Below the pieces are notes generated by a model. The model worked only from the letters and a program-made list of their open reading frames with translations, did not search any database and was not told the origin of the DNA. Below, in pieces: positions 1-43,663 of a stretch of DNA of 43,663 nucleotides. Source of the DNA: a phage. Positions within the stretch are counted from its first letter, which is position 1. Every line of letters begins with the position of its first letter. Location of the stretch: sequence record PZ445529.1. The stretch is one strand, 5' to 3'. The translations under genes and the position numbers were made by a program.

Positions 1-121
1 GGGGTGCTGTCCCGCTGTCCCGATCGGCTAAACCCCGCGGCAGCACTGGTGGGGACGGGGTGCTGTCCCGCTTTGTCCCGCCCCTTGTTTGTCCCGCTTT
101 TTGTCCCGCTTAGTTTATGCA
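1..121. repeat. 3' part of copy A of a 169-bp dispersed element; six GTCCCG iteron cores (mostly TGTCCCGC) and a 15-bp direct repeat ggggtgctgtcccgc at 1-15 and 57-71
   Basis: 1-121 is identical to 27667-27787; with 43616-43663 it reconstitutes the full element found intact at 27619-27787. Confidence 0.9.
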
Positions 122-159: not shown

Positions 160-207
160 GGCAACCAATGCGACCAGCTAAAAACACTCGAAATGGCAAC
201 CAATGCG
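160..207. repeat. two copies of 13-bp motif CGCATTGGTTGCC (reverse orientation) at 160-172 and 195-207; a third forward copy lies at 43540-43552
   Basis: Exact 13-mers read directly; they flank element copy A in inverted orientation, just 3' of the primase/helicase gene. Confidence 0.8.
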
Positions 208-215
208 CGCAACAT

Positions 216-2480
216 TTAATCTTTTAAATCATCATCGGTCGCAGAAAGCGTGATGGGTATACTCGTTTTAATGACAATATTCGACGACCCGTAGATGGCC
301 CCGGTGTGCGGATCGGTATAAAAACCGAGCACGCCGCGCTCGACCATATCGTCGATTGCCTTCGTCGATGTGCCACCTTTCGCAAGCCCAGCCTGGCGGA
401 CAATTGCCGATTTACTGAATCCGGTATGGTCCGGGTTATCTTCCATCAGTTTTTCCAGTGCCGCATAAAGCACTTTCTCTTTTTCGTTGCGCGGTCCGGC
501 GGCGTTTTCTTCCTTAACTGCGGCTTTGCCAGCGGCCTTCGCCTGTTCGATGGCGAACGGTGCCAGGGCGACCGGTACGAGGTAAAGAGTCTCGTCGCGT
601 GGCGTGGATGCGATCGGCTTGACGTCCCAACCGGCAACCACATCGCCGAAGTCTGGCCCGGCGCTGGTGGACTGGTGGGCTTCGAACGCTTCGGACTTGC
701 GGAGATCTACCTTAACTTTGCACTTAAGCAGGACGAATCCGCGCGGCGCTTGCTTGATGCCGTTACGCGCCTTTTCGTGATACAGGTTCAATTGTCCGGG
801 CTGGTTGTCGTCCGGTTGTTCCAGGAAGAACGCGGAATCGACAGCACCATGAAGCGCGCCGGACCCGCGAGGCGTTCTGCTGCCGTTTGCACCTTTAGCC
901 GGGTGGTGGATGACGCCCGCACTGCCGCCTGTATTTTCCGCAATGGCCTTCAGCGCCTTGACCACTTCGCCCATATCGCTGGCGTTGTTCTCGTCGAACG
1001 GTTTAGCATCGGCGGACCGCAGCGCAACAGTCTGGTTGAGTGAGTCGAACGCCACCAGGCCAACCGGTTCGCCGTTAGCGGTGCGGTTGATAAAGCTGAT
1101 AACTTCGCGCAAGCCCGACTTGCTGGTGATATCCCAGCCGCGTGATTGCAGGTCAATAATGTGCAGCTTGTCCAGGTCGTGCTCGTATTTGATCTGCAAT
1201 GCTTCCTTACGCTGGTTGGAGGCTTCGCCACCTTCCGCGTCGAAATAGAAGCAATGGGACTGGACGACCTTCGCACCGCCAAACGGGATACCCGCGGCAA
1301 CCGCACCCATCTGCCCCAGCACGTAGAACGATTTACCGATGTTCGACTCACCCGCCATGTACCAGGTCGATTTAAAGTTAATCAACCCCTCGATGATCGG
1401 GTCGTGCTTACTGAACAGCGCAACCGGCTCGTTATCCAGATCCGCATCGGTGCACACGCCGTATTCTTCGCCGTCGCCAACCGCATCAACAATATGTTCA
1501 TATAAGGATTCGACTTCCTCGTCGTCCAGCCCTGGGAGGATGGCGGCGATTTGCTTACGTGACATGTTGTGCGGCTCGACGTTCAGGTGGTCCGGTATCC
1601 CGATAAGACGTAGCGCCAGGTGCTGGTGTCTGTTCAGCTCAGAGCAACACTCGTTGCCGGTGTGCATACACTTGAAACGGATCTCGCCATCCTTGACCAT
1701 AATAGCCGTCGACCCTTCGCCGCTGTGCAGATGTTCGTTCGGGCACGGCACTTCATAACCGCGACCGGAGGATAACTCCTCGAATCCTGCTTGGAAGCAC
1801 CAGTCCAGAATGCCGTCAGCCACTGCGTCGTCGCCCTGGGTAAGCTCGCGGCGTACTTCCTCTTTCTCCACTCCCAGCCTGTCAGCCCGGCGAAGCAGAC
1901 GACGCACACTGGCGCGCTTTCCGTAGTGGCACTTAATGACAGACTGCTGGTGTGGTAGGTACATCAGGCGGTTTGTGTCTTTGGTGCAATCGTCGAAGTC
2001 CACATCAGACAGGCCCAGTTGGTCTAACAGCGCGTACTGGACGCGGCCCAGGTCTTCCGCCGGTACGGGCTTGTCTGTGAGCACAAGGAAACGTGCGCAA
2101 CGCGTGCCGCCTTTCAGCGGGTGGCGGTCGCCGGTTGTTGTATGGAATACGTGCTCCAGCCCCGCATCGATGAAAGCCTTACGGCAGCGGCGCAAGGTGC
2201 GAGTGTCGGTACGGTCGATATCAAAGAACAGGATCGAGCGGTCCACCGCGCTGGTCTTACGGCGTAGGCCGTCACTGGTATATGCCACGATGCCATCGGC
2301 CTTGCGCTTGCGGCGCGCATACTCGGCTTTATCCTCGGTCTTGTTGATATGCACTGATGATATTTCTTTCGCATCATTGATAAATTCGAAAAATTCATCA
2401 GTTGTCATCTGGAAGTTTTCCGCCCTGGCTTTTTCGCCTTTTTTAGCGGGTCTTGTTACAGCGAATTTAATTAAGCTCAT
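216..2480 (-). CDS. bifunctional DNA primase/helicase (primase-type N-terminal region with Cys/His zinc motif, RecA-like P-loop helicase C-terminal region)
   Basis: 754-aa ORF; zinc motif CPNEHLHSGEGS...KCMHTGNECC; Walker A GESNIGKS; VIHHPAKG motif typical of RepA/DnaB-like phage helicases; stop 11 nt after the upstream HTH gene. Confidence 0.8.
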   Translation of the reverse strand: MSLIKFAVTRPAKKGEKARAENFQMTTDEFFEFINDAKEISSVHINKTEDKAEYARRKRKADGIVAYTSDGLRRKTSAVDRSILFFDIDRTDTRTLRRCRKAFIDAGLEHVFHTTTGDRHPLKGGTRCARFLVLTDKPVPAEDLGRVQYALLDQLGLSDVDFDDCTKDTNRLMYLPHQQSVIKCHYGKRASVRRLLRRADRLGVEKEEVRRELTQGDDAVADGILDWCFQAGFEELSSGRGYEVPCPNEHLHSGEGSTAIMVKDGEIRFKCMHTGNECCSELNRHQHLALRLIGIPDHLNVEPHNMSRKQIAAILPGLDDEEVESLYEHIVDAVGDGEEYGVCTDADLDNEPVALFSKHDPIIEGLINFKSTWYMAGESNIGKSFYVLGQMGAVAAGIPFGGAKVVQSHCFYFDAEGGEASNQRKEALQIKYEHDLDKLHIIDLQSRGWDITSKSGLREVISFINRTANGEPVGLVAFDSLNQTVALRSADAKPFDENNASDMGEVVKALKAIAENTGGSAGVIHHPAKGANGSRTPRGSGALHGAVDSAFFLEQPDDNQPGQLNLYHEKARNGIKQAPRGFVLLKCKVKVDLRKSEAFEAHQSTSAGPDFGDVVAGWDVKPIASTPRDETLYLVPVALAPFAIEQAKAAGKAAVKEENAAGPRNEKEKVLYAALEKLMEDNPDHTGFSKSAIVRQAGLAKGGTSTKAIDDMVERGVLGFYTDPHTGAIYGSSNIVIKTSIPITLSATDDDLKD

Positions 2481-2995: not shown

Positions 2996-3025
2996 TTGAC
3001 ACCTATCCTGCAACCAATCTATTAT
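2996..3025 (+). promoter_or_regulatory. main early promoter (-35 TTGACA, 18-bp spacer, -10 TATTAT) with TGCAACCAAT motif in the spacer
   Basis: ttgacacctatcctgcaaccaatctattat; drives the plus-strand early block through a ~195-nt leader. Confidence 0.55.
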
Positions 3026-3221
3026 TCCCCCCGTCGACAGGATGCAGGACGCAAACTGGAGAGGGGCAACGCAGGGGCCGGATCGAAGTGTCAGGATTCC
3101 CAACCGTGATTATATAACCCGGTCCACTACCCGAACGGGAGAACGCGCAACCGGGCAATATGTTAAGGCCACCGACGAAGTTAACTGCCGACACCTAAAC
3201 TTAACCAATCGGAGATATACC

Positions 3222-5872: not shown

Positions 5873-5961
5873 CCGCTTAGGCACAACCAAGTAGATTAGC
5901 AACCAAGCCGGACGGGGTGGCTTCCAATAACCCCGATACATGTGAAATGAGGAATTGGAAA

Positions 5962-6690
5962 ATGGCTAAAGTCAACCTGAAAAATGTGCGCGTATGCTTC
6001 CTGAAAATTTGGGAACGTGACACCCCTAAACAGGATGGACAAAAACCGGCATACCGTGCCGTGATTCTTCTGGATAAAGAAGATCCGCAGGTGGACAAAG
6101 TGGAAGCGGCAGCGCGCGCAGTGCTCACCGACAAGCTGAAATCCGAGAAGAATGCCGATAAGTGGATGGACCGCCACTACGCCCAGGATTCGAAGGAATG
6201 CGCAGTTCGTGACGGTGACGAGCGCGACGAAGTATCCGAAGAATTCGAAGGCATGTTGTACATCAACGCTAAATCGTTCAAACAGCCAAACATTCAAACG
6301 TCACTCGGCGAGAAGCAGACCGAACAGGGTCTGACCGTAGAAGGCGACGAGATCGAAGGCCAGGAGATCTACTCCGGTTGTTATTGCAACGTGTCCCTTG
6401 ATATCTGGGCGTGGAACAACACCAACGGCAAGGGACTCGGTGCTGGCTTGCTGGGTTTACGCTTCCGTGATGACGGTGAAGCCTTCGGCGGTGGCGGGTC
6501 TTCTTGCTCCGATGAAGACCTGGACAACGACGACGAAGACGAAGCACCGCGCAAGTCCAAGAAATCCAAGCGCCGCGATGACGACGATGAGGAAGATGAA
6601 AAACCTCGCAAACGCCGCAAGTCCCGCGATGACGAAGATGAGGACGAAGACGACGAAGACGAAGCACCACGCAAACGTCGCCGCCGTTAA
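5962..6690 (+). CDS. putative single-stranded DNA-binding protein (DUF2815-like) with acidic/basic repeat tail
   Basis: N-terminus MAKVNLKNVRVCF... characteristic of the phage SSB family paired with Cas4-like exonucleases; start chosen at ATG 5962 (RBS GAGG); C-terminal DE/KR tail. Confidence 0.6.
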   Translation: MAKVNLKNVRVCFLKIWERDTPKQDGQKPAYRAVILLDKEDPQVDKVEAAARAVLTDKLKSEKNADKWMDRHYAQDSKECAVRDGDERDEVSEEFEGMLYINAKSFKQPNIQTSLGEKQTEQGLTVEGDEIEGQEIYSGCYCNVSLDIWAWNNTNGKGLGAGLLGLRFRDDGEAFGGGGSSCSDEDLDNDDEDEAPRKSKKSKRRDDDDEEDEKPRKRRKSRDDEDEDEDDEDEAPRKRRRR

Positions 6691-12722: not shown

Positions 12723-12727
12723 ATTGG

Positions 12728-12756
12728 TTGCATAACCATATTGGTTGCATTATATT
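12728..12756 (+). promoter_or_regulatory. sigma70-like promoter (-35 TTGCAT, 17-bp spacer, -10 TATATT) built on two direct ATTGGTTGCAT copies
   Basis: aaattggttgcataaccatattggttgcattatatt; contains TGGTT-gcat-AACCA inverted repeat. Confidence 0.5.
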
Positions 12757-14187: not shown

Positions 14188-14654
14188 AATTACTGATTTG
14201 CGATTTGGATGGCGTTATTAATGGTTCAAGCGATGCGCGTGCCGACCTGGTGCCGGGGATAAAAACGAAATCAACCTTTTGGGCAAAGTGGCACAAAGCG
14301 CATGTACGCGAAGACCTGAACATGGATATGCTGCCGCTGTTGCGCATGTACAAAGAGCAAGGCTTCGAGATCGCGTATCTGACCAACCGGCAGCTAGAAT
14401 GCTGGGAGACTACCGCCGAGCAACTGGAGGTATTCCCGGCAGGCCGGTTGTTTATGCGCCACATGCTGGACGACACCCCGCCGCCAGAGTTTAAGGCGTG
14501 CGCTGTGTTCAAAATGGTCTGCTATGCAGACGTGTCTGAACTTGTCATCATTGAGGACTGCGAGAAGAACATCGCGGCAATTCGTCGGGCGTGCGGCGAT
14601 TTGGTCCCGAAAATTTACGCAATAAACGTTGCAAAATTCACTTGCAACCAATAG
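14184..14654 (+). CDS. HAD-superfamily hydrolase (nucleotidase/phosphatase-like)
   Basis: 156 aa; motif I LICDLDGVI (DxDG). Confidence 0.55.
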   Translation: MKLLICDLDGVINGSSDARADLVPGIKTKSTFWAKWHKAHVREDLNMDMLPLLRMYKEQGFEIAYLTNRQLECWETTAEQLEVFPAGRLFMRHMLDDTPPPEFKACAVFKMVCYADVSELVIIEDCEKNIAAIRRACGDLVPKIYAINVAKFTCNQ

Positions 14655-14660
14655 GTTGGT
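14632..14660 (+). promoter_or_regulatory. promoter-like element with perfect palindrome TGCAACCAA-tagg-TTGGTTGCA
   Basis: cttgcaaccaataggttggttgcattatag; -35 TTGCAA, 17-bp spacer, -10-like TTATAG. Confidence 0.45.
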
Positions 14661-14717
14661 TGCATTATAGTTAACGCGTCGGGGGGCAATACGGCCTCCC
14701 ATAAAAAGGACCACATA

Positions 14718-15820: not shown

Positions 15821-17389
15821 TTATTTACCTTCCAGCTTTTCCACTTTCCGCAACAGGTGAACGAAGGCGGCACACAGATCCATCAACAGCACGTTACTAT
15901 CTAGTGACAGCACATCGTCCGTATACCCGATTTCCTTTCGGTCGACTACAACTTCGTTGCCTTCCTCGTCCACCCCCTTGATATCCTCATAAATGGCATA
16001 ACCCGGCAGCAAGTGCACATATTCTGGGTCAATCCTTGCCAGATCCTGTGCGATAAGGCCGTATCGCTGTACGTCAGACTCCTTATACTTGAACATTGCC
16101 GGAAGCCATTGACGAACGCGGTTGTAGCTTTCCTCGCCGTCAGTGTATTGGATTTCTTTTTTAAGGTCGCGGTCCGATAGCGCCGCTTTCTGGAACTCGT
16201 TAACCGAAGGGTTGCTGCTGTTACCACTAATCAGCCTGCCGTCCGGTAGGAAGCGGAATAAAGCCTCCGCATAACCATCCTTCCACACGTGGACACGGTA
16301 GTCCGATAAGTGGGCATCGCCGCCCCTGACCAAGCCAGATCGTGTCCAATCCGTGTACCACTTATGCATCGTCTGCCCGACCCAGCTATCCATCCCGAAA
16401 GACGCGTTTGATATAATCAAACCGTTTCTTTCGACATCATTGAAGGTTAGCGATTCGCCTCCGTTCAGACGTAATGTTGCGTGTTTAACGATACTATCAT
16501 CACCAACGCCAAGATTAGCGCGTGCCGCCGATTTATCTGCGACGTCTGCCAGGTTCTGCGACTTCTTCATGAATTGCGTAGGGTCGATCGCGTTTTTGAA
16601 GTCTTCGGCTTCGTCCCGATACCCCTGCGCGGCATCGCGGGCGGCTTGCGCGTCCCTCTTCGCTGTATTGGCCTGATCTCGAATAACGCCGGTGTCAGTC
16701 TTGATCTGGTTCGTCTGCGTCTTGATGGCCTGCGTATCCGTCTTGATCTGGTTCGTCTGCGTCTTGATGGCCTGCGTATCCGTCTTGATCTGGTTCGTCT
16801 GCGTCTTGATGGCCTGCGTATCAGTTTTGATCTGGTTCGTCTGCGTCTTGATGGTATTGGTGGCGTCGCGAATACCCGCCGTCTCGGTCTTGAAGCCTTC
16901 TGCCTCATTGCGAAATCCTTGCGCGGCTGCTTCCGATGCGGCGGCTTGTTGTTGCAGGTCGCGCATTTCCACTGGGTCGATCTGTTTCATCAACTGCGAC
17001 AGATAGCCCCATGACATACCCTGCATGACTTGCCCGTTCGGCAGCGTTACGGTGATTTCTTCAGCGTCGCCGAAGATTGCACGCCAGTTGTTTTCATCGG
17101 CGATCATCAAACGAAATGCTTTCTGTGCCTGGACGGTAACGCCCATCGTAGTCAATGACATGGTGTCACGTTTGATGCCGTCCCAGGCTAGGCCGGTTGC
17201 CGTCGGGCCGTCGAACGGCAGCACCAGCGTAAGCGCCGTGTTACTTTTGATTGATGCGATCGCCACGGTGTAAGGAACTTGCCCTACCACCAGCGTTAAG
17301 AAGTCGCCAGCTTTAAACGCGGTAAACGTTGTGCCGACCCCTACTACCGCCTTGCTATTGTTCGTTACGGATAGCGTACCCGCTGCCAT
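15821..17389 (-). CDS. tail fibre with coiled repeat region and C-terminal intramolecular chaperone (peptidase S74-like) domain
   Basis: C-terminal SDRDLKKEI...YGLIAQDL...LLMDLCAAFVHLLRKVEKLEGK resembles autoproteolytic chaperone domains; start set at ATG 17389 (RBS GAGGA) rather than 17416. Confidence 0.65.
   Translation of the reverse strand: MAAGTLSVTNNSKAVVGVGTTFTAFKAGDFLTLVVGQVPYTVAIASIKSNTALTLVLPFDGPTATGLAWDGIKRDTMSLTTMGVTVQAQKAFRLMIADENNWRAIFGDAEEITVTLPNGQVMQGMSWGYLSQLMKQIDPVEMRDLQQQAAASEAAAQGFRNEAEGFKTETAGIRDATNTIKTQTNQIKTDTQAIKTQTNQIKTDTQAIKTQTNQIKTDTQAIKTQTNQIKTDTGVIRDQANTAKRDAQAARDAAQGYRDEAEDFKNAIDPTQFMKKSQNLADVADKSAARANLGVGDDSIVKHATLRLNGGESLTFNDVERNGLIISNASFGMDSWVGQTMHKWYTDWTRSGLVRGGDAHLSDYRVHVWKDGYAEALFRFLPDGRLISGNSSNPSVNEFQKAALSDRDLKKEIQYTDGEESYNRVRQWLPAMFKYKESDVQRYGLIAQDLARIDPEYVHLLPGYAIYEDIKGVDEEGNEVVVDRKEIGYTDDVLSLDSNVLLMDLCAAFVHLLRKVEKLEGK
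16698..16865. repeat. in-frame 42-bp tandem repeat (about 4 copies, 21-bp sub-period) encoding TDTQAIKTQTNQIK heptad repeats
   Basis: Unit gtcttgatctggttcgtctgcgtcttgatggcctgcgtatcc repeated head-to-tail. Confidence 0.85.
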
Positions 17390-17410
17390 AGCTAAATCCT
17401 CGTAAATTGG

Positions 17411-17439
17411 TTGCAATCCAGGTTGAGCGGTGTAATACT
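17411..17439 (+). promoter_or_regulatory. promoter-like element with ATTGGTTGCAA motif (-35 TTGCAA, -10-like TAATAC) upstream of the lipoprotein gene
   Basis: cgtaaattggttgcaatccaggttgagcggtgtaatact. Confidence 0.4.
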
Positions 17440-24277: not shown

Positions 24278-24912
24278 CTTACGAATCCGATAGCTGTCTT
24301 AAGGGTGACGGACACCGTTGCCGTGTTATGCCCGTTGTCAGTGTACGACAAGCTCGAACGCTCGACCACGAATAAACCTGTTTCGCCATCCGGCGCGGTG
24401 ACGACAAACGGCTTGACGAAGTGCCCGCGAAGGAAGTTGTAAACCAGTTTGGGGTCGCACCACTTGTCAGTAGTCAGTCCGATGAATTGCACGGGGAACT
24501 GTTTCGTTTCGGCGTTCGGGCCGTCCGCGATGTTCTGACCGTAACCGTTACCGAATTGCAATTCCTCGGACCGGAAAGACAACTGCACGTCTCCGCCGCC
24601 TTGCAATTGCATATGCCAGTAATAGGGCCATTCGTTTGACCGCGGGTCGTGCGCTTCGATTAGCTCATAAACCACACCGGCTTTTGTCGGTCCTGCCCAG
24701 TTATCCGCCAGGGTGATGACGGTGTTAGAGTTGAATGCCGCAATTTTTCCGGTGTAGTCGTTGCCGTCGATGCGGGTAAATACGCGGACCTTCCCGATCT
24801 CGCTCAAGAACGCCGTTCCCGCGCCCGTTACGGTCTTACTTCCTTTCGTTAGTGTGATTGTACCTTGCGCCATAAAAAAGCCCCCACGTTGTAGTGAGGG
24901 CCATTTTATCAT
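24274..24912 (-). CDS. minor tail protein (lambda M-like)
   Basis: 212 aa; start overlaps tape measure stop (ATGA). Confidence 0.6.
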   Translation of the reverse strand: MIKWPSLQRGGFFMAQGTITLTKGSKTVTGAGTAFLSEIGKVRVFTRIDGNDYTGKIAAFNSNTVITLADNWAGPTKAGVVYELIEAHDPRSNEWPYYWHMQLQGGGDVQLSFRSEELQFGNGYGQNIADGPNAETKQFPVQFIGLTTDKWCDPKLVYNFLRGHFVKPFVVTAPDGETGLFVVERSSLSYTDNGHNTATVSVTLKTAIGFVR

Positions 24913-27551
24913 CGTTTGTAAAGTACACCACCCGGTTTCGTCGCTTTCACGATCTCGGCCTTGACCGCCTCGGTGATTTGCTTTCCGAACGCCTGCGCGG
25001 TGCGTGGGTCCGGCCCGCTCACACTGGCATCCGTCTTACCGGTCCCCATGTTCACGTTGGTCGTTACAATCATCCCACCCCCAACACCGGCAGCGGCAAC
25101 GCCCAGCTTACCGTCAGGCCCGCGCTTCAGTGGCATGATGGCCTCGGGTCCGGCCTCACCCATCAATCCAGCGCCTTTAGCGAACGCCTGGACGCCATAA
25201 CTGAAAAAGGTAGGCTGGCTTACCACTTTCCCCGAATAGGCAGCGAGATTGCCTCCTGCGTACGCTCCGCCGTCCGCATTCTTAGTGAGGCCGGAGAAGA
25301 TAGCGCCGAACAATCCGTTTTTGCCGCCGTCGCCACCGAAAGCGCTAACGATGGACTTGAATGCTTGCGATGTAGCCAGCTTGATTAATTCGCTCAGGAT
25401 GGACTTAACCATATCCTTTGCGTTCAGCTTGCCAGTCTCGAAAAACTCGTTCATCGTGTCCTGCATAGCGCCGAACGTGAATTTTGTGAGTGACGTCATC
25501 TGCGTATAGCCGTTACCCATTTCATCCACGCTATCCTTAAGCCCGCGGCTGAATCCATCCCATAGCGAGGCGTTAGCACCGGTCTGTGCTTCCTGCACTT
25601 CGCGCAGTTTAGACACCGCCAGATCAATATCGGTATCGCTAGCGCCCACCCGCTTAAGGCGGTCAATTAGCTGCAATTCTTCGCGCAGGTTAGCCGCTTC
25701 GCGAGTGGAAAGCGCATAGCCCGCCGCGGTGGCTTTTAGCTCGGCGTTCTGGTTCTTGACGAAGGCGTCGATCTGCGCGTGCGCCTTGACCTGCTTCTCT
25801 TTCGCGTCCAGCAATTTGGCTTCTTCGACGATCTGCTCGCGTACTTCCTTCACGCGTCCGAATTCGACCATCTGCTGCTTTTCTGCTGCCGTTAGTGCTC
25901 TTTCTTTGCTTGCTGCGATTAACTGTTCATTATCCGCGATCAGCTTGTTTAGGGCCGCTTGAGCGCGTTGCGTGCGGGTCTGCGTAGACGCGTTGGCTTC
26001 GATCTGCTTGCCGGATTCTCGAAGCTGGGCCAGTTCGCTCCGTGCAACTTCCAGCATTTTCATACCGGCATCCACGCGAACAGCCGCGGCCTTCTTCGGG
26101 GCGGGGTCTTTGTAACGCTCGTTTACCTGCTTCACCGCCTCGGCAAGCTCTTTCTCGTCAATCACGCCGCGCTTATTCAGCAAATTGAGGCGGGCGATCT
26201 CGTCGGCGCGCCTCTTCGCGTTGGTTGCGTACTCCTTCTCAAACGCGGCGCGGTCGCGGGCGGTGCGGTTGGCCTCCTCGTTCGCCTTTGCTGCTTCGTC
26301 CGCGGCGCTGGCGTTGTCCCGCTCCGCACGGTTGCGCAGGGTGAGCGACGCCACTACTTTCTCCTGGGCGACCAGTTCGCTGTAAAGCATGTTAATACGC
26401 GCTTTCTGCGCTTCAGTCATTACCCCACCGGCAGCGTTTACCGCTTTCATCTCGGCATAGTAAGCCGTGGTTAGTCGCTGCAATGACTCACGCGCTTTCA
26501 TCTCGGATTCATTGGAGGACTGCGCGCGGCCCACATCCAGGATGGCGTCCCACATTGATTTGGCTGCCGATGTGACGACGTTCATCGACCGCTCAAGCGT
26601 ACCCATGTTGGACTTGATTTCATTGGTCATGCTGGTGAACGACGCAGCGGCTGTTTTGTTAGCCAACGCAACTGCGTCTGTCTCACGACCCGCATCAACG
26701 AGCGACTGTACCTGCTGGATCTGCGCTTCGTTTACGACGTGATACTTATCCGCCAGCGCACGCAGTCCGCCAACGGGGTCGGTTGACAGCTTCGCCACCG
26801 CCGCGACCACATCCTCGATCGGCTGGCTGGACACCTTCGCGAAGTCATTCACTACCTTCGCCAGTGCGCCGAAGTCACCCCCCGCTTTCACACCCGCCGC
26901 CGCCAGCGCCTGGATTGTGTCACGCGTCTTGCGGAACGACCCGCCCATGCGCTCGGCGTTCTCGGATAGCACCAGGATCTGGTTTGCCGTCAGGCCGGAA
27001 ATGTTACCGGAAAGTGCCAGCGTCTTGTTAAGCGCGGCGACCTGGTTCTCCGCGCGGGACGTAATTGCCACCCCTACGCCTAACGTTGCCGTTAGTGCTG
27101 CAATGCCGATCCCTACCGGACCGAGGAAGCCAGCAACAAAACGCAGCGTGTTACCCAATCCACCGAACGCCCCAGTTAACTGCGGTAACTGCTGAAGCAT
27201 GACGCGGTGCACCGGCATACCCATCTCAAGCGTTACAGCGATATCCTGTAACTGGAATGCGGCGTTACGCGAGGCAAAGCCCAGGTTTTTGGTCGACATG
27301 CCTAACCTGTTGGCAAGTCGCTCCTGTTTCGTCATGCCATCGGCGGCGCGCTGCGATTCAGTCGCCAGCTTCTCCATTCCGCCCGCGGCGTCACTCGTCA
27401 CCTTTTTGGATTTGCCGAGGGTGTCGTTTAATTTCTTAACCTTGTTTTCTGTGTTCTCGGATTTCTGTGCGAAGGAGTCCAGCACAGTATTTGCCGTTCT
27501 GATTTGTGCAACATCAGCCTTCAGCGTGATGCCTGCCGCTTGATCTGCCAT
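24909..27551 (-). CDS. tail tape measure protein
   Basis: 880 aa, Ala/coiled-coil-rich, between chaperone genes and the M/L/K/I/J-like genes. Confidence 0.8.
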   Translation of the reverse strand: MADQAAGITLKADVAQIRTANTVLDSFAQKSENTENKVKKLNDTLGKSKKVTSDAAGGMEKLATESQRAADGMTKQERLANRLGMSTKNLGFASRNAAFQLQDIAVTLEMGMPVHRVMLQQLPQLTGAFGGLGNTLRFVAGFLGPVGIGIAALTATLGVGVAITSRAENQVAALNKTLALSGNISGLTANQILVLSENAERMGGSFRKTRDTIQALAAAGVKAGGDFGALAKVVNDFAKVSSQPIEDVVAAVAKLSTDPVGGLRALADKYHVVNEAQIQQVQSLVDAGRETDAVALANKTAAASFTSMTNEIKSNMGTLERSMNVVTSAAKSMWDAILDVGRAQSSNESEMKARESLQRLTTAYYAEMKAVNAAGGVMTEAQKARINMLYSELVAQEKVVASLTLRNRAERDNASAADEAAKANEEANRTARDRAAFEKEYATNAKRRADEIARLNLLNKRGVIDEKELAEAVKQVNERYKDPAPKKAAAVRVDAGMKMLEVARSELAQLRESGKQIEANASTQTRTQRAQAALNKLIADNEQLIAASKERALTAAEKQQMVEFGRVKEVREQIVEEAKLLDAKEKQVKAHAQIDAFVKNQNAELKATAAGYALSTREAANLREELQLIDRLKRVGASDTDIDLAVSKLREVQEAQTGANASLWDGFSRGLKDSVDEMGNGYTQMTSLTKFTFGAMQDTMNEFFETGKLNAKDMVKSILSELIKLATSQAFKSIVSAFGGDGGKNGLFGAIFSGLTKNADGGAYAGGNLAAYSGKVVSQPTFFSYGVQAFAKGAGLMGEAGPEAIMPLKRGPDGKLGVAAAGVGGGMIVTTNVNMGTGKTDASVSGPDPRTAQAFGKQITEAVKAEIVKATKPGGVLYKR

Positions 27552-27618
27552 TATGCAGTCCCCTTTTTATGCAGTTGCCGATTGTCATTGTATCAGCGAT
27601 TTTAAAACAATCCTTATT

Positions 27619-27787
27619 CAGTCTCAGACGAGGGGGGCCACTGACCCCCGTCTAGTCTGAAAGACTGGGGTGCTGTCCCGCTGTCCCGATCGGCTAAACC
27701 CCGCGGCAGCACTGGTGGGGACGGGGTGCTGTCCCGCTTTGTCCCGCCCCTTGTTTGTCCCGCTTTTTGTCCCGCTTAGTTTATGCA
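27619..27787. repeat. copy B of the 169-bp element (palindrome + GTCCCG iterons), in the gap between the GT chaperone stop and the tape measure start
   Basis: Exact match to 43616-43663 + 1-121; followed at 27826-27857 by extra inverted GGGACA/GTCCCG copies (gggacaaaacgggacgtcccgatctgtcccgc). Confidence 0.9.
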
Positions 27788-27856
27788 ATAAATTCGAATA
27801 GGTATGCACATTTCAGGGGTGGGACAAAACGGGACGTCCCGATCTGTCCCGCTGCA

Positions 27857-28533
27857 TTATGCGGGGTTCTGCTGCGCCATTTCATCAAGCGCGATTCGTT
27901 CCATTAGCTTGATATCTTTAAACGCGCGCTGTTCGTTTTCGATACCGTGCATCTTAAATAGCCACTCCAGCACGCCGTAGTCGATGCCGTATGCGCCACC
28001 AAATCCGGTGCGCCATTGCGTGGAGCAATCTGTGAAGACTGCGACTACCTTCGCGTTGTCGGGCCATAGCGCAACAGGCGGACAAACATCTTCGGGGGCC
28101 GCACCCCATAAACTTGCGGCTAAATCTTCGGAGGGTGGCGGCGGGCCATAAAAGCGTCGCGCCGCCTCAATTAGTTTTTTTCACGCAACCCCATCAGCTC
28201 GAGATAGTACGACGTGTGAAACACACCGAACGCGCGCGGATAGTTGACCACCAGGCGGCGGACGTTCTCCGCGTTAAATTCGTCTGGCAGATTCCAGCCT
28301 TCCGCGACGTGCATGATGGCCTCGACCATAACGTTAAAGCCGTCTGGGTCATTGTCGTCATATTCCGATAGCTTTCGTTCGGTGTCCTGCATGGTTTGCG
28401 AAAATTCGTCGATCGGGCGGTGGCGTACGGTAAACGTCATCTTGCCCGGCTCGTTCTCGCCAGGACGCGGGATCTCAATCGGCAGCTTAAAGGTCGGTTT
28501 AGGGTCAAGTGTGAAGAGTGGTGCTTTAGCCAT
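27857..28533 (-). CDS. tail assembly chaperone GT-like fusion made by programmed -1 frameshift
   Basis: Slippery heptamer A-AAA-AAC at the last sense codons of G; the -1 frame is open for 105 codons to a stop at 27857-27859 with no start codon near its beginning. Confidence 0.6.
28171..28533 (-). CDS. tail assembly chaperone (lambda G-like)
   Basis: 120 aa; ATG 28533 with RBS GGAGA; between major tail protein and tape measure; ends ...R E K N * over a run of seven A. Confidence 0.65.
   Translation of the reverse strand: MAKAPLFTLDPKPTFKLPIEIPRPGENEPGKMTFTVRHRPIDEFSQTMQDTERKLSEYDDNDPDGFNVMVEAIMHVAEGWNLPDEFNAENVRRLVVNYPRAFGVFHTSYYLELMGLREKN
28174..28180 (-). promoter_or_regulatory. slippery heptamer AAAAAAC for the G/GT -1 frameshift
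   Basis: Plus-strand gtttttt; XXXYYYZ pattern in register with the zero frame. Confidence 0.6.
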
Positions 28534-28545
28534 TGTAGTATTCTC

Positions 28546-28572
28546 CAATAAAAAAGGGGCCGTGCTGGCCCC
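28546..28572 (-). terminator. Rho-independent terminator after the major tail protein gene
   Basis: ggggcc-agcac-ggcccc followed by TTTTTTATT on the minus strand. Confidence 0.65.
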
Positions 28573-33387: not shown

Positions 33388-33416
33388 TTGCAATCCTCAT
33401 ATTGGTTGCATATATT
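33388..33416 (+). promoter_or_regulatory. sigma70-like promoter (-35 TTGCAA, 17-bp spacer, -10 TATATT) with two ATTGGTTGCA copies
   Basis: cttgcaatcctcatattggttgcatatattggttgcacaccaaca; the 21-mer tatattggttgcacaccaaca recurs on the minus strand at 43413-43433. Confidence 0.55.
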
Positions 33417-33445
33417 GGTTGCACACCAACAACGAGGACACACTA

Positions 33446-39234: not shown

Positions 39235-39343
39235 ATGCGCCGACCATCGGCAACATAGGAGACGGCCCTGCCATCTAACGGGGATTATAACAGGCACAAA
39301 AAAGCCCACCAAATCGGCAGGCTGGGAGGGGTACGGGTTGCCG

Positions 39344-40486
39344 TTACTTCAACATTTCCGGGCTAATGGTTAAGCGCGCTACTTCGCCGTAATTGGCGCT
39401 GTAGGTGATGACGTTGGCACTGCGGCCGGACATCCAACCGCCGCGGCTTGCGTATGCGTCTTTCGCTGCGAGTGTCCGGTGCTGTTCAACAATCATGTTG
39501 CGGGATTCTACAATCTTCTGGTGGTGCAAGTGGCCTACGTGCGCGTAGCTGTACTCACTGGACCCGAAAGCCTGTCTGAATTTAGAAATCATAACCTGCT
39601 CGATCGCATCGAATCGCGCTTTGTGCCCGTGGTGGAAGAATAGCGTGGTCTTGCCGTGCTGCACCATTTTGTAGACGTCAGGGGACGTATCCACATCGAC
39701 GCGCGGCTCGTTCTCGTACAGAGTATTGAACATCTCAGCCAGCCAAATCATACCCGACTCGTCATGATTCCCCTGGACGATTAGCAGTTTGACTTTGTGG
39801 TGTTTTTGCAGCGCCAGGTCTACCACGTTACGCACCATGCGAATCATGTAGCGGACCAACTTCTGGTATCGGGTATCTGCGTCCAGTATGTGACCACTGG
39901 CAGGAGTGACGGCATCGAGGCTATCAAAGTGCGCCATATCACCGAGGATATTAATCACGGCAGTGCCTGCGTCCGGTGCGCGTGCGAAGGCTTCGACAAA
40001 CCAGCGGTAAAACAGGTCTTCGGCGATCGCCATATCCCAGTCCTCGCCAGTCTCCTCGCCCCAGGCCAACATGCCCAGGTGGAAGTCGGACACGGTGTAC
40101 AGGTTGAGTAGGTCAAGTGCCTGGATCGGGACTGGTGGGGCGCTTACTGGTGCTGCCGGTGTGATCTCGCTGTTCATACCCTCGACAACGGCGCGCATTG
40201 CTTCAAGCTGGCGCTCCTTGTCCTGCTCAGTGATAACCCACGACATGACCTCTTCGCCATTGCCGCGTACCAGGGCGGATACGCGCTTAACACCAAAGCC
40301 ATCGGCAACGCGCTTACGGATTACATCATCGTTACCATGACCAATACCTTTCTTCGACAGGCGGGCTTTGCGCATGTAGACATTTCGGAGGGAAAGGCCG
40401 TACTTCTTAGAAATCTCTTTCGATGTAGCGCCGGATTGTAATTCAGCAATCAATTGCTCGTCGGTGATTTTAGTTTGCGGGTGCAT
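39344..40486 (-). CDS. HTH domain fused to calcineurin-like metallophosphoesterase
   Basis: 380 aa; N-terminal HTH-like GATSKEISKKYGLSLRNVY; metallophosphatase motifs DFHLG, GDMAHFD, GNHDE, HHGH, GHLHH. Confidence 0.7.
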   Translation of the reverse strand: MHPQTKITDEQLIAELQSGATSKEISKKYGLSLRNVYMRKARLSKKGIGHGNDDVIRKRVADGFGVKRVSALVRGNGEEVMSWVITEQDKERQLEAMRAVVEGMNSEITPAAPVSAPPVPIQALDLLNLYTVSDFHLGMLAWGEETGEDWDMAIAEDLFYRWFVEAFARAPDAGTAVINILGDMAHFDSLDAVTPASGHILDADTRYQKLVRYMIRMVRNVVDLALQKHHKVKLLIVQGNHDESGMIWLAEMFNTLYENEPRVDVDTSPDVYKMVQHGKTTLFFHHGHKARFDAIEQVMISKFRQAFGSSEYSYAHVGHLHHQKIVESRNMIVEQHRTLAAKDAYASRGGWMSGRSANVITYSANYGEVARLTISPEMLK

Positions 40487-41878: not shown

Positions 41879-42165
41879 TTTGCGCCCCCCGGAAGGTGTA
41901 GCGTCGCAATTGTCTCCCGGATCCGGTCGGCGATTGGCATCCAGAAGATGGCAGTTACGAAGCCCAAACCGGCGACAGTGCGCTCGCCAGACAAACCAGA
42001 CCACTCGGCAATAGCTGGCGCACCAAATATGGCACACAGGAAGCCAACTACGACATATAAAACGAAGTTCAACGGCCCTTTCGTTGCCTCGCCGTGAATG
42101 CGTGCGCCCACGAAGCCACCAGCAAGACACGCAAGGGCGAATAACCACTCGTTTAGCTTATCCAT
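41875..42165 (-). CDS. holin (three predicted TM segments, charged C-terminus)
   Basis: 96 aa; hydrophobic segments WLFALACLAGGFVGA, FVLYVVVGFLCAIFGAPAIA, VAGLGFVTAIFWMPI; immediately upstream of endolysin. Confidence 0.6.
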   Translation of the reverse strand: MDKLNEWLFALACLAGGFVGARIHGEATKGPLNFVLYVVVGFLCAIFGAPAIAEWSGLSGERTVAGLGFVTAIFWMPIADRIRETIATLHLPGGAK

Positions 42166-42200
42166 AAAAAAGTCCCAGTAAGTTTTAGCTCACTGGGACT
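42166..42200 (-). terminator. intrinsic terminator (9-bp stem, 12-nt loop, TTTTTT) abutting the holin start codon
   Basis: Minus strand agtcccagt-gagctaaaactt-actgggact-tttttt-ATG. Confidence 0.6.
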
Positions 42201-42217
42201 ATATCACGCTTGCGTAA

Positions 42218-42391
42218 TTAATCGAAAATGGACCACTTACCGACGCCTTTCCATTCCCACCCTTCCGATCGGACGGCCTCGAACATCCTGCCCCCTATCA
42301 TATCCCGATACCATAGCCACCACATGCGCAACCTGGTAGGGTGCTCCGTGATACCACGGCGCTTGTATACCTCGAACGTCATGCGGGCCAT
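42218..42391 (-). CDS. hypothetical small protein (57 aa)
   Basis: ATG-initiated ORF overlapping upstream ORF end; no clear RBS. Confidence 0.3.
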   Translation of the reverse strand: MARMTFEVYKRRGITEHPTRLRMWWLWYRDMIGGRMFEAVRSEGWEWKGVGKWSIFD

Positions 42392-42480
42392 ACGACGAAC
42401 ATCAGGATGCCAAACAGCACCGCGGTAAGCAGGCACAGCCCGCAGATCAAACCAAACCAATAAATCACATCATGAATCAT
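42379..42480 (-). CDS. small hydrophobic peptide (33 aa)
   Basis: Hand-translated MIHDVIYWFGLICGLCLLTAVLFGILMFVVWPA; overlaps neighbours by about 12 nt. Confidence 0.3.
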   Translation of the reverse strand: MIHDVIYWFGLICGLCLLTAVLFGILMFVVWPA

Positions 42481-42595
42481 AATCTGCCCCATAGGTATTT
42501 AGCCAGACTACCGCGAAGACGTATAGCATCGAATTGCCCCTACCGCCTATCTCAAAGCGGTTGTGCATCAGCATATCACGGATAGCCACACTCAT
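42470..42595 (-). CDS. hypothetical small protein (41 aa)
   Basis: Hand-translated ORF; stop overlaps next start. Confidence 0.25.
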   Translation of the reverse strand: MSVAIRDMLMHNRFEIGGRGNSMLYVFAVVWLNTYGADYDS

Positions 42596-42626
42596 TTCAG
42601 AATCACCGAGCGCGGGTCAATGGCGT

Positions 42627-42818
42627 TCATGCTGCCGTCACGGCATCAAAGCGATTGACTATCTCATGCGTGACAATATCGTATTTCTCCGGCAGCTTTG
42701 CCTTACTCGCCCACCAGACACGATCGCTTGCGGCGTGGTGCAAGCGGACGTGTGCCGCAAGGGTCTGTATTGGCCTCAGGATTTTGCCATCTGCTTTACG
42801 GCGGAATAGTAATTTCAT
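42627..42818 (-). CDS. hypothetical protein (63 aa)
   Basis: ORF; start overlaps upstream stop. Confidence 0.45.
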   Translation of the reverse strand: MKLLFRRKADGKILRPIQTLAAHVRLHHAASDRVWWASKAKLPEKYDIVTHEIVNRFDAVTAA

Positions 42819-43084
42819 TTGCTCAGTCTCCAGTGTTTGCCTACCCGCTCAACGGCGGGCTTCCGGCGTAATGTAATACGGATCCCCATTGGTTGCAAGG
42901 AGGTCCGCACCCTGAAATCGTGTTGTGCTGCGAACTGGTGCAAGTAGCGAGTCTGCGTCAACGGCTTTACGTCGTCGCGATAGCACCAGAATACAGATTC
43001 ACCCTCAACCGCATTCTCAGCCCATATTCGTATGCAATGCAGGGGAATATGCCACGAAAGCTGTTTGGCGCGCCTACGGCTCAT
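42815..43084 (-). CDS. hypothetical basic protein (89 aa)
   Basis: ORF 10 nt after upstream stop. Confidence 0.45.
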   Translation of the reverse strand: MSRRRAKQLSWHIPLHCIRIWAENAVEGESVFWCYRDDVKPLTQTRYLHQFAAQHDFRVRTSLQPMGIRITLRRKPAVERVGKHWRLSK

Positions 43085-43399: not shown

Positions 43400-43427
43400 T
43401 GTTCAGTCCTCATGTTGGTGTGCAACC

Positions 43428-43456
43428 AATATAGCAAGGTGCCAGGCCGGATGCAA
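43428..43456 (-). promoter_or_regulatory. sigma70-like promoter (-35 TTGCAT, 17-bp spacer, -10 TATATT) with two ATTGGTTGCA copies
   Basis: Reverse complement gives ttgcat-ccggcctggcaccttgc-tatatt; shares an identical 21-mer with the promoter at 33388-33416. Confidence 0.55.
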
Positions 43457-43539
43457 CCAATATTAATCACGCGCATGAAAAAGTTGATCGCTATCTGCTG
43501 AGACTGCAAACCGCATTTTTCACTCAACATAATACAACC

Positions 43540-43552
43540 CGCATTGGTTGCC
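43540..43552. repeat. forward copy of CGCATTGGTTGCC motif
   Basis: Exact match to the reverse complement of 160-172 and 195-207. Confidence 0.8.
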
Positions 43553-43615: not shown

Positions 43616-43663
43616 CAGTCTCAGACGAGGGGGGCCACTGACCCCCGTCTAGTCTGAAAGACT
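43616..43663. repeat. 5' part of copy A of the 169-bp element (imperfect GC-rich palindrome cagtctcagacgaggggggccactgacccccgtctagtctgaaagact)
   Basis: 43616-43663 is identical to 27619-27666; window end joins window start seamlessly as in copy B. Confidence 0.9.

What the first reader, a model, noticed from the sequence alone, without database searches (positions are those of the whole stretch)
27619..27787. 169-bp iteron-bearing element present twice, one copy inserted between the GT chaperone and the tape measure gene
27619-27787 is identical to 43616-43663 joined to 1-121. Each copy has a GC-rich imperfect palindrome (cagtctcagacgaggggggccactgacccccgtctagtctgaaagactg) followed by six direct GTCCCG cores about 10-17 bp apart. 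Copy B is flanked by two more inverted copies at 27826-27857. It fills a ~300-bp non-coding gap inside the tail operon, where the chaperone and tape measure genes are normally adjacent. Candidate roles, all inference: iterons for a replication or packaging protein, a cis-acting RNA element acting on late transcription, or a small mobile insertion. The copies are roughly 16 kb apart on the circle.
Basis: seen in the sequence. Interest (0 to 1): 0.78.

Follow-up and report, generated by a model that had tools for sequence, protein, structure and literature searches.

The report
Paired iteron-and-hairpin elements, likely replication origins
A common lytic E. coli phage (genus Dhillonvirus) carries the same short-repeat-plus-hairpin DNA element at two places, after its primase-helicase gene and inside its tail operon, and it most likely serves as a pair of replication-origin-type protein binding sites, though no experiment has tested this.

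Summary
Window 27619-27787 is identical to 43616-43663 joined to 1-121 (169 bp, 15,997 bp apart).

The window is a Dhillonvirus (HK578/SO-1-like coliphage). Both loci match in all 159 Dhillonvirus records in GenBank. The SO-1 record of 2009 already labels them "region A/B; direct, inverted and palindromic repeats".

In transcription sense (window minus strand) each element consists of:
- an AT-rich stretch;
- four GCGGGACA boxes;
- a ~35-40-bp spacer;
- two more boxes;
- a near-invariant 49-nt imperfect palindrome.

In most relatives the spacer is specific to its locus. The window's perfect identity reflects tail-locus-to-primase-locus gene conversion, also seen in SM_S22 and SM_W22.

A more distant relative (eiAU) keeps the two-locus design with different boxes. 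Salmonella phage SE1 keeps a single element next to its primase-helicase gene.

The primase-helicase has a predicted C-terminal winged helix.

The best reading is a pair of initiator-binding, origin-type sites, like SPP1 oriL/oriR or P4 ori/crr (confidence about 0.45).

The main rival is a terminase (pac) recognition site. Five linear records break about 115 bp downstream of the primase-side copy, but that cut sequence is absent from the tail copy.

A cos site, an intrinsic terminator, a known RNA family and a mobile insertion are not supported. Interest is moderate.

The parts
27619..27787 (-). Tail-locus copy of the repeated element (SO-1 'region A' core), between the tail chaperone T frame and the tape measure gene
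   Evidence: Identical to 43616-43663+1-121. Homologous segment present in 159 Dhillonvirus records.
27619..27667 (.). 49-nt imperfect palindrome (CAGTC..TCAGAC..GACGGGGG / CCCCC..GTCTGA GACTG). Stems invariant and loop variable in 37 distinct sequences.
   Evidence: Folds at -31.8 kcal/mol, z -2.9 (minus strand) and -2.7 (plus strand). No T-run follows it.
27674..27688 (-). Proximal pair of boxes (CGGGACAGCGGGACA in transcription sense)
27689..27722 (-). Spacer of the 'tail-locus type' (GTCCCCACCAGTGCTGCCGCGGGGTTTAGCCGAT). In this genome it is also present at the primase locus (23-56).
27730..27775 (-). Four direct GCGGGACA boxes separated by A-tracts, start-to-start spacing 12, 16 and 10 bp
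27776..27820 (.). AT-rich stretch (67% A+T against 45% for the genome), a candidate unwinding element
   Evidence: alignment
27821..27852 (.). Palindromic cluster of four boxes (GCGGGACA-n-CGGGAC|GTCCCG-n-GTCCC). Together with 27730-27775 it forms a large inverted repeat around the AT-rich stretch. Most relatives carry this module twice (79 bp more).
27587..27595 (-). Conserved extended -10-like TGATACAAT, 35 nt upstream of the tape measure ATG (unique flank, not part of the repeat)
   Evidence: Conserved in all tail-locus sequences aligned; coordinates. Consensus match only.
43616..43663 (-). Primase-locus copy, palindrome part (continues at 1-121 across the window ends)
1..121 (-). Primase-locus copy, box part (boxes at 8-22 and 64-109, spacer at 23-56), followed by an AT-rich stretch at 110-160 (75% A+T). 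It lies 95 nt downstream of the primase-helicase stop.
216..2480 (-). Primase-helicase gene (754 aa). N-terminal primase-like region with a conserved DxD and a Cys/His cluster, and an AAA_25/RepA-like helicase at 357-531.
270..485 (-). Predicted C-terminal winged-helix domain of the primase-helicase (residues 666-737), the candidate box-binding domain
   Evidence: AlphaFold2 pLDDT 80-87 over this stretch. Foldseek matches to MarR/ArsR, histone H1 and ORC winged helices, with high probability scores but weak E-values, 0.009 or worse. Its recognition helix varies along with the box sequence.
43486..43510 (-). Sequence around the inferred packaging-series terminus (TTTGCAGTCT|CAGCAGATAGCGATC; break between 43500 and 43499), about 115 bp downstream of the primase-side palindrome. 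Absent from the tail locus.
   Evidence: Records PTXU06, WFI, Zar3M, Pandora71 and UDS3lw start or end here. PhageTerm 'headful, pac' reported for UDS3lw (PMC13348001).
38662..39312 (-). Small terminase subunit (weak P22 gp3 / Sf6-like matches), the rival candidate box-binding protein
27857..28548 (-). Tail assembly chaperone G (Phage_TAC_4, 28171-28548) and T frame (DUF1799, ends 27857)
24909..27551 (-). Tape measure protein gene

Best explanation
The two elements are a matched pair of double-stranded-DNA binding sites for one phage protein, and they most likely act as replication-origin-type sites.

Proposed mechanism (inferred, not shown):
1. The C-terminal winged helix of the 754-aa primase-helicase binds the GCGGGACA boxes cooperatively. 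These are six per core element, with more in the tail locus.
2. The oligomer melts the adjacent AT-rich stretch.
3. The unwound 49-nt palindrome folds into a hairpin that positions the primase domain.
4. The copy after the primase-helicase gene would be the primary origin.
5. The copy in the tail operon would be a second origin or an initiator-bound barrier, as proposed for SPP1 oriR.

Because both copies must fit the same protein, they evolve together, helped by gene conversion between them.
For: What the sequence shows:
- The boxes are strongly over-represented and confined to the two loci.
- They are direct repeats spaced 8-16 bp apart, separated by A-tracts.
- Each array abuts a 67-75% A+T stretch in a genome that is 45% A+T.
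- In the tail locus, oppositely oriented boxes flank the AT-rich stretch.
- The box region has no single-strand structure (z 0.05 and 1.0). This points to protein binding on duplex DNA.

Conservation:
- Both loci are present in 159 of 159 Dhillonvirus records.
- The palindrome stems are invariant in 37 distinct sequences.
- A relative with only 68% primase-helicase identity keeps the same boxes and hairpin.

Concerted change:
- eiAU (47% identity) keeps arrays at the same two loci, with TCGCCCCG-type boxes and an 88%-identical 52-nt block shared by its two loci. It also keeps the GACGGGGG...CCCCTCGTC hairpin before its tape measure gene.
- SE1 (43% identity, different tail module) has one element directly after its primase-helicase gene: an AT-rich stretch, five GGGGGAGA boxes and a GC hairpin. 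It has none in its tail operon.

Sequence exchange between the loci:
- The tail-type spacer sits at the primase locus in the window, SM_W22 and SM_S22.
- SM_S22 has the whole box array duplicated in tandem.
- The window lacks a 79-bp module that most relatives have.

Candidate binding protein:
- The primase-helicase C-terminus is predicted to be a winged helix.
- Its recognition helix is similar in lineages that share the boxes and different in SE1.

Precedents:
- SPP1 has two origins about 13 kb apart in a 44-kb headful-packaging siphovirus. Each has direct repeats plus an AT-rich unwinding element, and oriR interrupts the late structural genes (PMC6316719).
- The phage P4 alpha protein is a primase-helicase with a winged helix that binds origin repeats (PMC2777425, PMC4234260).
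- RSF1010 oriV combines iterons with ssi stem-loops and uses a RepA helicase (PMC4234260).
- The pRN1 origin is a stem-loop just downstream of its primase-helicase gene.
Against: - There is no experimental evidence for binding or for initiation.
- The small terminase is homologous in the same set of relatives. Its HTH shows the same pattern as the winged helix: conserved where the boxes are conserved, different in SE1. Co-variation therefore cannot choose between the two proteins.
- An inferred packaging terminus lies only about 115 bp from the primase-side copy.
- The winged-helix fold matches have weak E-values (0.009 or worse), and the model's overall pLDDT is 69.
- GC skew follows transcription and gives no origin signal.
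- A relative with a 34%-identical primase-helicase (DUEC01) shows no box array beside that gene.
- The two copies have the same orientation, unlike the oppositely oriented ssiA and ssiB of RSF1010 (orientation from my own knowledge).
Confidence: 0.45

Rival explanations
1. The boxes are recognition sites for the small terminase subunit. The primase-side element would be the upstream part of the pac site where the headful packaging series starts. The tail-side element would be a second, weaker or regulatory, terminase binding site.
For: - Dhillonviruses are reported as headful/pac phages by PhageTerm: UDS3lw (PMC13348001), Opt-212 (PMC9022532) and BF9 (PMC10059673).
- Five independently deposited linear records start or end within 3 nt of window 43500, about 115 bp downstream of the primase-side palindrome and oriented towards the late genes.
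- The small terminase has weak P22 gp3 / Sf6-like matches.
- It is homologous in L043 (54%) and SE1 (37%). Its HTH is conserved where the boxes are conserved.
- Arrays of short phased repeats next to a cut site are the architecture of the P1 and SPP1 pac sites (my own knowledge of those systems).
Against: - The cut-site sequence (TTTGCAGnnnCAGCAGATAGCGATC) and the 115 bp between it and the element are unique to the primase locus. The tail copy is followed directly by the tape measure gene. What the two loci share is therefore not the cleavage region.
- No record starts downstream of the tail copy in the same way.
- No role is known for a second pac-type site in the middle of the tail operon.
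- That record starts reflect PhageTerm termini is stated for only one of the five records.
- One paper reports a 5' cos end elsewhere for EE09, so published terminus calls in this genus are inconsistent.
Confidence: 0.25
2. The elements are transcription-control sites. The boxes would bind a phage regulator, or the transcribed palindrome would act as an RNA signal (processing site or antitermination-type hairpin), at the start of two late transcription units: the units beginning at gp49 and at the tape measure gene.
For: - Both copies have the same orientation relative to transcription.
- Each lies a short distance upstream of a promoter-like sequence. One is the extended -10-like TGATACAAT at 27587-27595. 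The other is TTGCAT-17-TATATT at 43428-43456.
- The palindrome folds stably as RNA (z -2.9).
- Annotators of HK578 and PTXU06 marked 'terminators' inside the tail-locus region.
Against: - There is no Rfam match at gathering threshold, and only junk microRNA-like hits at permissive threshold.
- No T-run follows the palindrome on either strand, and the terminator scan finds none.
- Folding is equally good on both strands, and there is no covariation.
- The boxes lie 75-230 bp upstream of the promoter-like sites, which is far for a classical activator.
- The genome has a separate, much more widespread promoter-associated motif, ATTGGTTGC, that fits the regulator role better.
- The small HTH protein encoded upstream of the primase-helicase gene has no detectable homologue in SE1 or eiAU, which still have arrays.
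Confidence: 0.15
3. The element is a small mobile or selfish insertion, or the perfect duplicate is an assembly artefact, with no function for the phage.
For: - The window's ends lie inside one copy, at a 15-nt sub-repeat that occurs four times.
- Another record (CHD5UKE2) breaks inside the tail-locus copy, with a terminal overlap of about 130 bp.
Against: - Both loci are occupied in all 159 records and in IMG/VR contigs.
- The homologous loci carry arrays in eiAU.
- The palindrome is more conserved than the surrounding genes.
- No empty site was found.
- The tail-type spacer at the primase locus is independently present in SM_W22 and SM_S22. The perfect identity is therefore most simply a real gene conversion.
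Confidence: 0.05

Closest known systems
Bacillus phage SPP1 oriL / oriR (bound by the origin-binding protein gp38)
   Same: - SPP1 is a 44-kb lytic siphovirus with headful (pac) packaging.
- It has two related elements 13-16 kb apart on the circular map.
- Each consists of direct repeats plus an AT-rich stretch.
- One lies in or next to a replication gene, and the other interrupts the late structural gene cluster (PMC6316719).
   Different: - There is no sequence or protein homology. SPP1 uses a separate initiator (gp38), a loader and a DnaB-type helicase. Here the only candidate is a primase-helicase with a winged helix.
- SPP1 origins have no counterpart of the conserved 49-nt palindrome.
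- Function here is untested.
Satellite phage P4 ori / crr, bound by the alpha protein
   Same: - One polypeptide combines primase, helicase and a C-terminal winged helix that binds the origin repeats (PMC2777425 and PMC4234260).
- Octamer repeats are present at two separate loci, both needed in cis (my own knowledge of Ziegelin and Lanka 1995).
   Different: - P4 alpha has a DnaG/Toprim-type primase and an SF3 helicase. The protein here has a different N-terminal primase-like region (DxD plus a Cys/His cluster) and an AAA_25/RepA-like helicase.
- P4 has no conserved hairpin next to its repeats.
Plasmid RSF1010 oriV (RepC iterons, AT-rich region, ssiA/ssiB hairpins; RepA helicase, RepB' primase)
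   Same: - Iterons, an AT-rich region and a conserved stem-loop that would be exposed on unwinding and recognised by a primase (PMC4234260).
- The helicase domain here falls in the same Pfam family (AAA_25). RepA is the only PDB sequence hit, and it is a very weak one (E 0.53).
   Different: - RSF1010 uses three separate proteins.
- Its two ssi hairpins lie on opposite strands within one origin.
- Here there is one palindrome per element, and the two elements are in the same orientation 16 kb apart.
P1 and SPP1 pac sites
   Same: - Short repeated motifs spread over 100-170 bp near the first cut of a headful packaging series.
- An inferred terminus lies 115 bp from the primase-side copy.
   Different: - Those pac sites are single-copy and surround the cut.
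- Here the element is duplicated, and the cut-site sequence is not part of the duplicated block.
Sodalis phage SO-1 'region A' and 'region B' (GenBank NC_013600 / GQ502199 annotation)
   Same: These are the same two loci and homologous sequence (88-92% identity). They are described there as direct, inverted and palindromic repeats with mutual similarity.
   Different: This is only an annotation note, and the tool showed it truncated. No analysis or experiment was found in the searchable literature.

Membership tests
Iteron-type phage/plasmid replication origin | Cluster of three or more direct repeats of a short motif | tested here: met
   Six boxes per core element with spacings of 8-16 bp. 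TGTCCCGC occurs 13 times against 1.96 expected, and 11 of the 13 lie in the two loci.
Iteron-type phage/plasmid replication origin | Adjacent AT-rich DNA unwinding element | tested here: met
   27776-27820 is 67% A+T and 110-160 is 75% A+T, against 45% for the genome. Actual unwinding was not tested.
Iteron-type phage/plasmid replication origin | Location in or beside a replication initiator/helicase gene | tested here: met
   One copy lies 95 nt downstream of the primase-helicase stop. The same position is kept in L043, eiAU and SE1. The second copy lies in the tail operon.
Iteron-type phage/plasmid replication origin | Sequence-specific binding of the repeats by an initiator protein | not testable with these tools
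   There is only a candidate: the predicted winged helix at residues 666-737 of the primase-helicase.
Iteron-type phage/plasmid replication origin | Replication initiates there, or the site supports replication in cis | not testable with these tools
   This needs marker-frequency analysis, 2D gels or a plasmid replication assay. GC skew is uninformative.
pac site of headful-packaging phages | Lies at the first cut of the packaging series | tested here: inconclusive
   Five records break about 115 bp downstream of the primase-side copy. The cut sequence lies outside the duplicated block and is absent from the tail locus.
pac site of headful-packaging phages | Bound by the small terminase subunit | not testable with these tools
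   A small terminase homologue co-occurs with the element in all relatives examined, as does the primase-helicase.
cos site | Fixed genome ends with cohesive overhangs at the site | tested here: not met
   The genus is reported as headful and circularly permuted. The window's ends match no other record's ends and coincide with a sub-repeat edge. The one published cos call (EE09, ATCTTAAGGG) is not found in the window.
Intrinsic (rho-independent) terminator | GC-rich hairpin followed directly by a T/U run | tested here: not met
   The scan finds none in 27300-28300. The palindrome is followed by AATAAGG or CATAAAA on the minus strand and by GGGGTGC on the plus strand.
Known structured RNA family (Rfam), including antitermination hairpins | Match to a curated covariance model, or covariation supporting a structure | tested here: not met
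   No match at gathering threshold in the whole window. At permissive threshold there are only weak generic microRNA-type hairpin matches and one weak antisense-RNA match, all far below gathering. The stems are invariant, so there is no covariation.
Small mobile element (MITE-like insertion) | Presence/absence polymorphism among relatives | tested here: not met
   Both loci are occupied in 159 of 159 records. No empty site was found.

The most novel reading that the evidence does not exclude
The tail-operon copy may not be a firing origin. It could instead be a programmed binding platform for the same primase-helicase that couples replication to late functions. For example, it could arrest forks coming from the primase-side origin and so trigger the switch to concatemer synthesis, as proposed but never proven for SPP1 oriR. 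The primase-side copy would then serve at once as origin and as the upstream half of the pac site. That would make a single conserved element class link initiation, the change of replication mode and packaging in a whole genus of therapeutic coliphages.
Probability: 0.12. Interest if true: 0.7.

Novelty: new member of a known kind. Interest (0 to 1): 0.45.

Why it matters
Dhillonviruses are among the most frequently isolated lytic coliphages and are used in phage-therapy and model collections. Neither their origin of replication nor their pac site has been defined.

This analysis gives a concrete and cheap set of tests:
- two defined DNA elements;
- two candidate binding proteins;
- one inferred terminus.

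If the origin reading holds, several things follow.
- It would be a Gram-negative counterpart of the SPP1 two-origin layout.
- It would be an example of a primase-helicase with a winged helix acting as its own initiator, outside P4 and pRN1.
- It would explain why about 300-400 bp of non-coding DNA is tolerated between the tail chaperone and tape measure genes.

For genome engineering, it flags two non-coding regions that should not be deleted or used as insertion sites. It also flags a pair of repeats that recombine with each other and break assemblies.

Tried and rejected
- **cos site.** Rejected. The literature reports headful packaging, and the window's ends coincide with a four-copy sub-repeat and with no other record's ends.
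- **Assembly artefact for the perfect identity.** Considered seriously, because five relatives have locus-specific spacers. Rejected as the main reading once SM_W22 and SM_S22 showed the same tail-type spacer at the primase locus. It cannot be fully excluded without reads.
- **Intrinsic terminator and Rfam families.** Negative.
- **Covariation test of the hairpin.** Not possible, because the stems are invariant in 37 sequences.
- **GC skew as an origin signal.** It follows the transcription strand only.
- **Using distant relatives to separate terminase from primase-helicase as the binding partner.** Failed. Both proteins are homologous in L043, eiAU-type and SE1-type phages, and both DNA-binding helices track the boxes.
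- **DUEC01 (34% primase-helicase identity, rearranged genome).** No clear array near the gene, so it is uninformative.
- **The small HTH protein upstream of the primase-helicase as box binder.** Unlikely, since it has no detectable homologue in SE1 or eiAU. It fits the separate ATTGGTTGC motif better, though that link is also unproven.
- **An apparent AGTCT motif shared by the palindrome and the terminus.** Dismissed. The three bases at the cut vary among genomes.
- **Literature.** Searches found no paper analysing these regions. Grose and Casjens 2014 is not held.

Full report
**1. The observation**

Window 27619-27787 is identical, base for base, to 43616-43663 joined to 1-121. The two copies are 15,997 bp apart on the circular map.

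- Each copy has a 49-nt imperfect palindrome (27619-27667) and six GTCCCG cores.
- The octamer TGTCCCGC occurs 13 times in the window against 1.96 expected from shuffles. Eleven of the 13 lie in the two loci.
- The tail-side copy sits in a 305-bp non-coding gap. The gap runs from the stop of the DUF1799 (T) frame of the tail chaperone at 27857-27859 to the tape measure ATG at 27551.
It holds two direct and two inverted boxes arranged as a palindrome.
- All genes flanking both copies are on the minus strand. In transcription sense each element therefore reads: AT-rich stretch, four boxes, spacer, two boxes, palindrome.

**2. What genome this is**

The window is a Dhillonvirus, an HK578/SO-1-like lytic coliphage. 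Its best relatives are about 93% identical.

- All 159 Dhillonvirus records in the phage collection match both loci.
- The most conserved 19-mer of the element occurs in IMG/VR only in 42-45-kb contigs of this type.
- The 2009 GenBank record of Sodalis phage SO-1 already annotates the two loci as "region A" and "region B". It describes them as "direct, inverted and palindromic repeat sequences" with mutual similarity.
- I found no paper that analyses these regions.

**3. Anatomy from comparison**

I aligned both loci from the window and from nine other genomes and compared 37 distinct sequences. The comparisons show the following.

- The left block, with four GCGGGACA boxes separated by A-tracts, is shared by both loci in all genomes.
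- The right block holds two boxes and then CCCAGTCTTTCAGACTAGACGGGGG-loop-CCCCCCTCGTCTGAGACTG. It is also shared by both loci in all genomes. The palindrome stems are invariant and only the loop varies.
- The ~35-40-bp spacer between the blocks is normally specific to its locus.
- The window carries the tail-type spacer at both loci. So do SM_W22 and SM_S22, making 3 of 21 primase-side copies. The 169-bp perfect identity is thus best explained by gene conversion from the tail locus to the primase locus in one lineage.
- Copy number also varies. SM_S22 has the whole array duplicated in tandem. Most relatives have two tandem "palindromic four-box cluster plus AT-rich" modules in the tail locus where the window has one, a 79-bp difference.
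- The window's own ends fall exactly at the edge of a 15-nt sub-repeat (GCGGGACAGCACCCC) that is present four times. Another record, CHD5UKE2, breaks inside the tail-locus copy with an overlap. I read both as assembler breaks at repeats rather than physical ends. This is inference.

**4. More distant relatives**

- A metagenomic relative with 68% primase-helicase identity keeps the same boxes and palindrome after that gene.
- Edwardsiella phage eiAU (47% identity) has long non-coding gaps at the same two loci. Its two loci share an 88%-identical 52-nt block and carry TCGCCCCG-type boxes. It also has a GACGGGGG...CCCCTCGTC hairpin just before its tape measure gene.
- Salmonella phage SE1 (43% identity, with a different tail module) has a single element directly after its primase-helicase gene. 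That element has an AT-rich stretch resembling the Dhillonvirus one, five GGGGGAGA boxes and a GC-rich hairpin. SE1 has no such element in its tail operon.

The design is therefore old. The boxes change between lineages but stay matched within a genome, as expected for sites read by one fast-evolving trans-acting protein.

**5. What it is not**

- **Known RNA family.** There is no Rfam match at gathering threshold. At permissive threshold there are only weak microRNA-type hairpin hits, caused by the large inverted repeat of boxes in the tail locus.
- **Intrinsic terminator.** No T-run follows the palindrome, and the terminator scan finds nothing.
- **Structured RNA in general.** The box region folds no better than shuffled sequence (z 0.05 and 1.0). 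The palindrome folds equally well on both strands (z -2.9 and -2.7).
- **cos site.** Published PhageTerm analyses report headful packaging for this genus. No other record shares the window's ends.
- **Mobile insertion.** No empty site was found in any relative.

**6. Candidate binding proteins**

- **Primase-helicase (216-2480, minus strand).** It has an AAA_25/RepA-like helicase core and an N-terminal primase-like region with a conserved DxD and a Cys/His cluster. Its C-terminal stretch is predicted, with pLDDT 80-87, to be a winged helix. Foldseek matches it to MarR/ArsR, linker-histone and ORC winged helices, with weak E-values.
- **Its recognition helix.** It reads GGTSTKAIDDMVER in HK578, SO-1 and the window. 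It is similar in the 68% relative, which has the same boxes, and different in SE1, which has different boxes.
- **Small terminase.** Its HTH shows the same pattern, so this comparison does not discriminate between the two proteins.
- **Small HTH protein upstream of the primase-helicase gene.** No homologue was detectable in SE1 or eiAU.

**7. The packaging lead**

Five linear records from several laboratories (PTXU06, WFI, Zar3M, Pandora71 and UDS3lw) begin or end within 3 nt of window 43500. This point is about 115 bp downstream of the primase-side palindrome, and the records are oriented towards the late genes. The UDS3lw paper reports "headful packaging with a preferred pac site" from PhageTerm.

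I infer that a pac cut lies there. However, the cut sequence and the 115 bp leading to it are unique to the primase locus. The tail copy runs straight into the tape measure gene. Whatever the two copies share is therefore not the cleavage region.

**8. Best explanation**

The features fit an origin-type, initiator-bound element best:

- phased direct repeats with A-tracts;
- an abutting AT-rich stretch;
- oppositely oriented boxes flanking that stretch in the tail locus;
- a conserved hairpin;
- a position beside the primase-helicase gene in four lineages;
- a winged helix on that protein.

There are published precedents.

- SPP1 has two origins about 13 kb apart in a 44-kb pac siphovirus. Each has direct repeats plus an AT-rich unwinding element. 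oriR interrupts the late structural genes, and gp38 bound at oriR is proposed to stall forks (PMC6316719).
- P4 alpha and pRN1 ORF904 are primase-helicase proteins with a winged helix, and the pRN1 origin is a stem-loop just downstream of its gene.
- RSF1010 combines iterons, an AT-rich region and primase-recognised stem-loops with a RepA helicase.

I put this reading at about 0.45, the terminase-binding rival at 0.25, a transcription or RNA signal at 0.15, and no function or artefact at 0.05. The remaining 0.10 is unassigned. All mechanistic steps are inferred. Only the anatomy, the conservation, the exchange of sequence between the loci and the fold prediction are shown.

**9. Novelty and interest**

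The repeats were already noted in a database record, so the bare observation is not new. What this analysis adds is:

- the anatomy of the element;
- the locus-specific spacers and the gene conversion between loci;
- the conservation of the two-locus design beyond the genus;
- the winged helix on the primase-helicase;
- the nearby inferred terminus.

If the origin reading is right, this is a new member of a known kind, namely iteron-type phage origins with an SPP1-like pair. Interest is moderate. A phage replication specialist would not be astonished, but origin and pac in a very common coliphage genus become directly testable.

Noticed in passing
window 161-204, 3010-3018, 12723-12748, 14644-14663, 17406-17414, 33401-33422, 42888-42896, 43422-43461, 43543-43551: A second repeated motif, ATTGGTTGC(A), occurs 13 times exactly against 0.54 expected. 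Copies are nearly all intergenic, often paired, and overlap sigma-70-like -35/-10 hexamers (for example TTGCAT-17-TATATT at 43428-43456). The motif is conserved as GCAACCAAC in eiAU and is almost absent from SE1. It is probably the operator or promoter motif of a phage regulon, distinct from the GCGGGACA boxes.
   Followed up: partly
window 43486-43510: Five independently deposited linear Dhillonvirus records start or end within 3 nt of 43500 (TTTGCAGnnn|CAGCAGATAGCGATC). This is probably the pac cut that PhageTerm reports. The three bases at the cut vary between genomes while the flanks are conserved.
   Followed up: partly
window 1 and 43663; sub-repeat at 1-15, 57-71, 27667-27681, 27723-27737: The window's ends coincide with the edge of a 15-nt sub-repeat (GCGGGACAGCACCCC) that is present four times. 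This suggests the linear record was broken by the assembler at a graph branch point rather than at a physical terminus.
   Followed up: partly
window 27587-27595 (minus strand): An extended -10-like TGATACAAT lies 35 nt upstream of the tape measure ATG and is conserved in every tail-locus sequence aligned. The tape measure and distal tail genes may have their own promoter.
   Followed up: no
L012 (PP627283 SM_S22, 39280-40044) and tail locus of most relatives (e.g. L001 3215-3660): The copy number of the sub-modules varies. SM_S22 has a tandem duplication of the entire box array at the primase locus. Most relatives have two tandem 'four-box palindrome plus AT-rich' modules at the tail locus, where the window has one (79 bp fewer).
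   Followed up: partly
window 16650-16896: An array of 21/42-bp tandem repeats (seven copies of a 79-nt register) lies inside the 531-aa tail-fibre-like ORF 15821-17416 (minus strand).
   Followed up: no
window 3348-3517 and 6511-6674: Repeated acidic and lysine-rich coding segments (GAAGATGACGACGA... AAACCGGCTAA) occur in two early-region ORFs, 3042-3728 and 5917-6690.
   Followed up: no
L009 (eiAU) 42121-43015 + 1-221: In eiAU the chaperone-to-tape-measure gap is about 1.1 kb and contains a reverse-strand ORF (gp54, 42365-42718) in addition to the box arrays. The eiAU record itself is also broken inside this gap.
   Followed up: no
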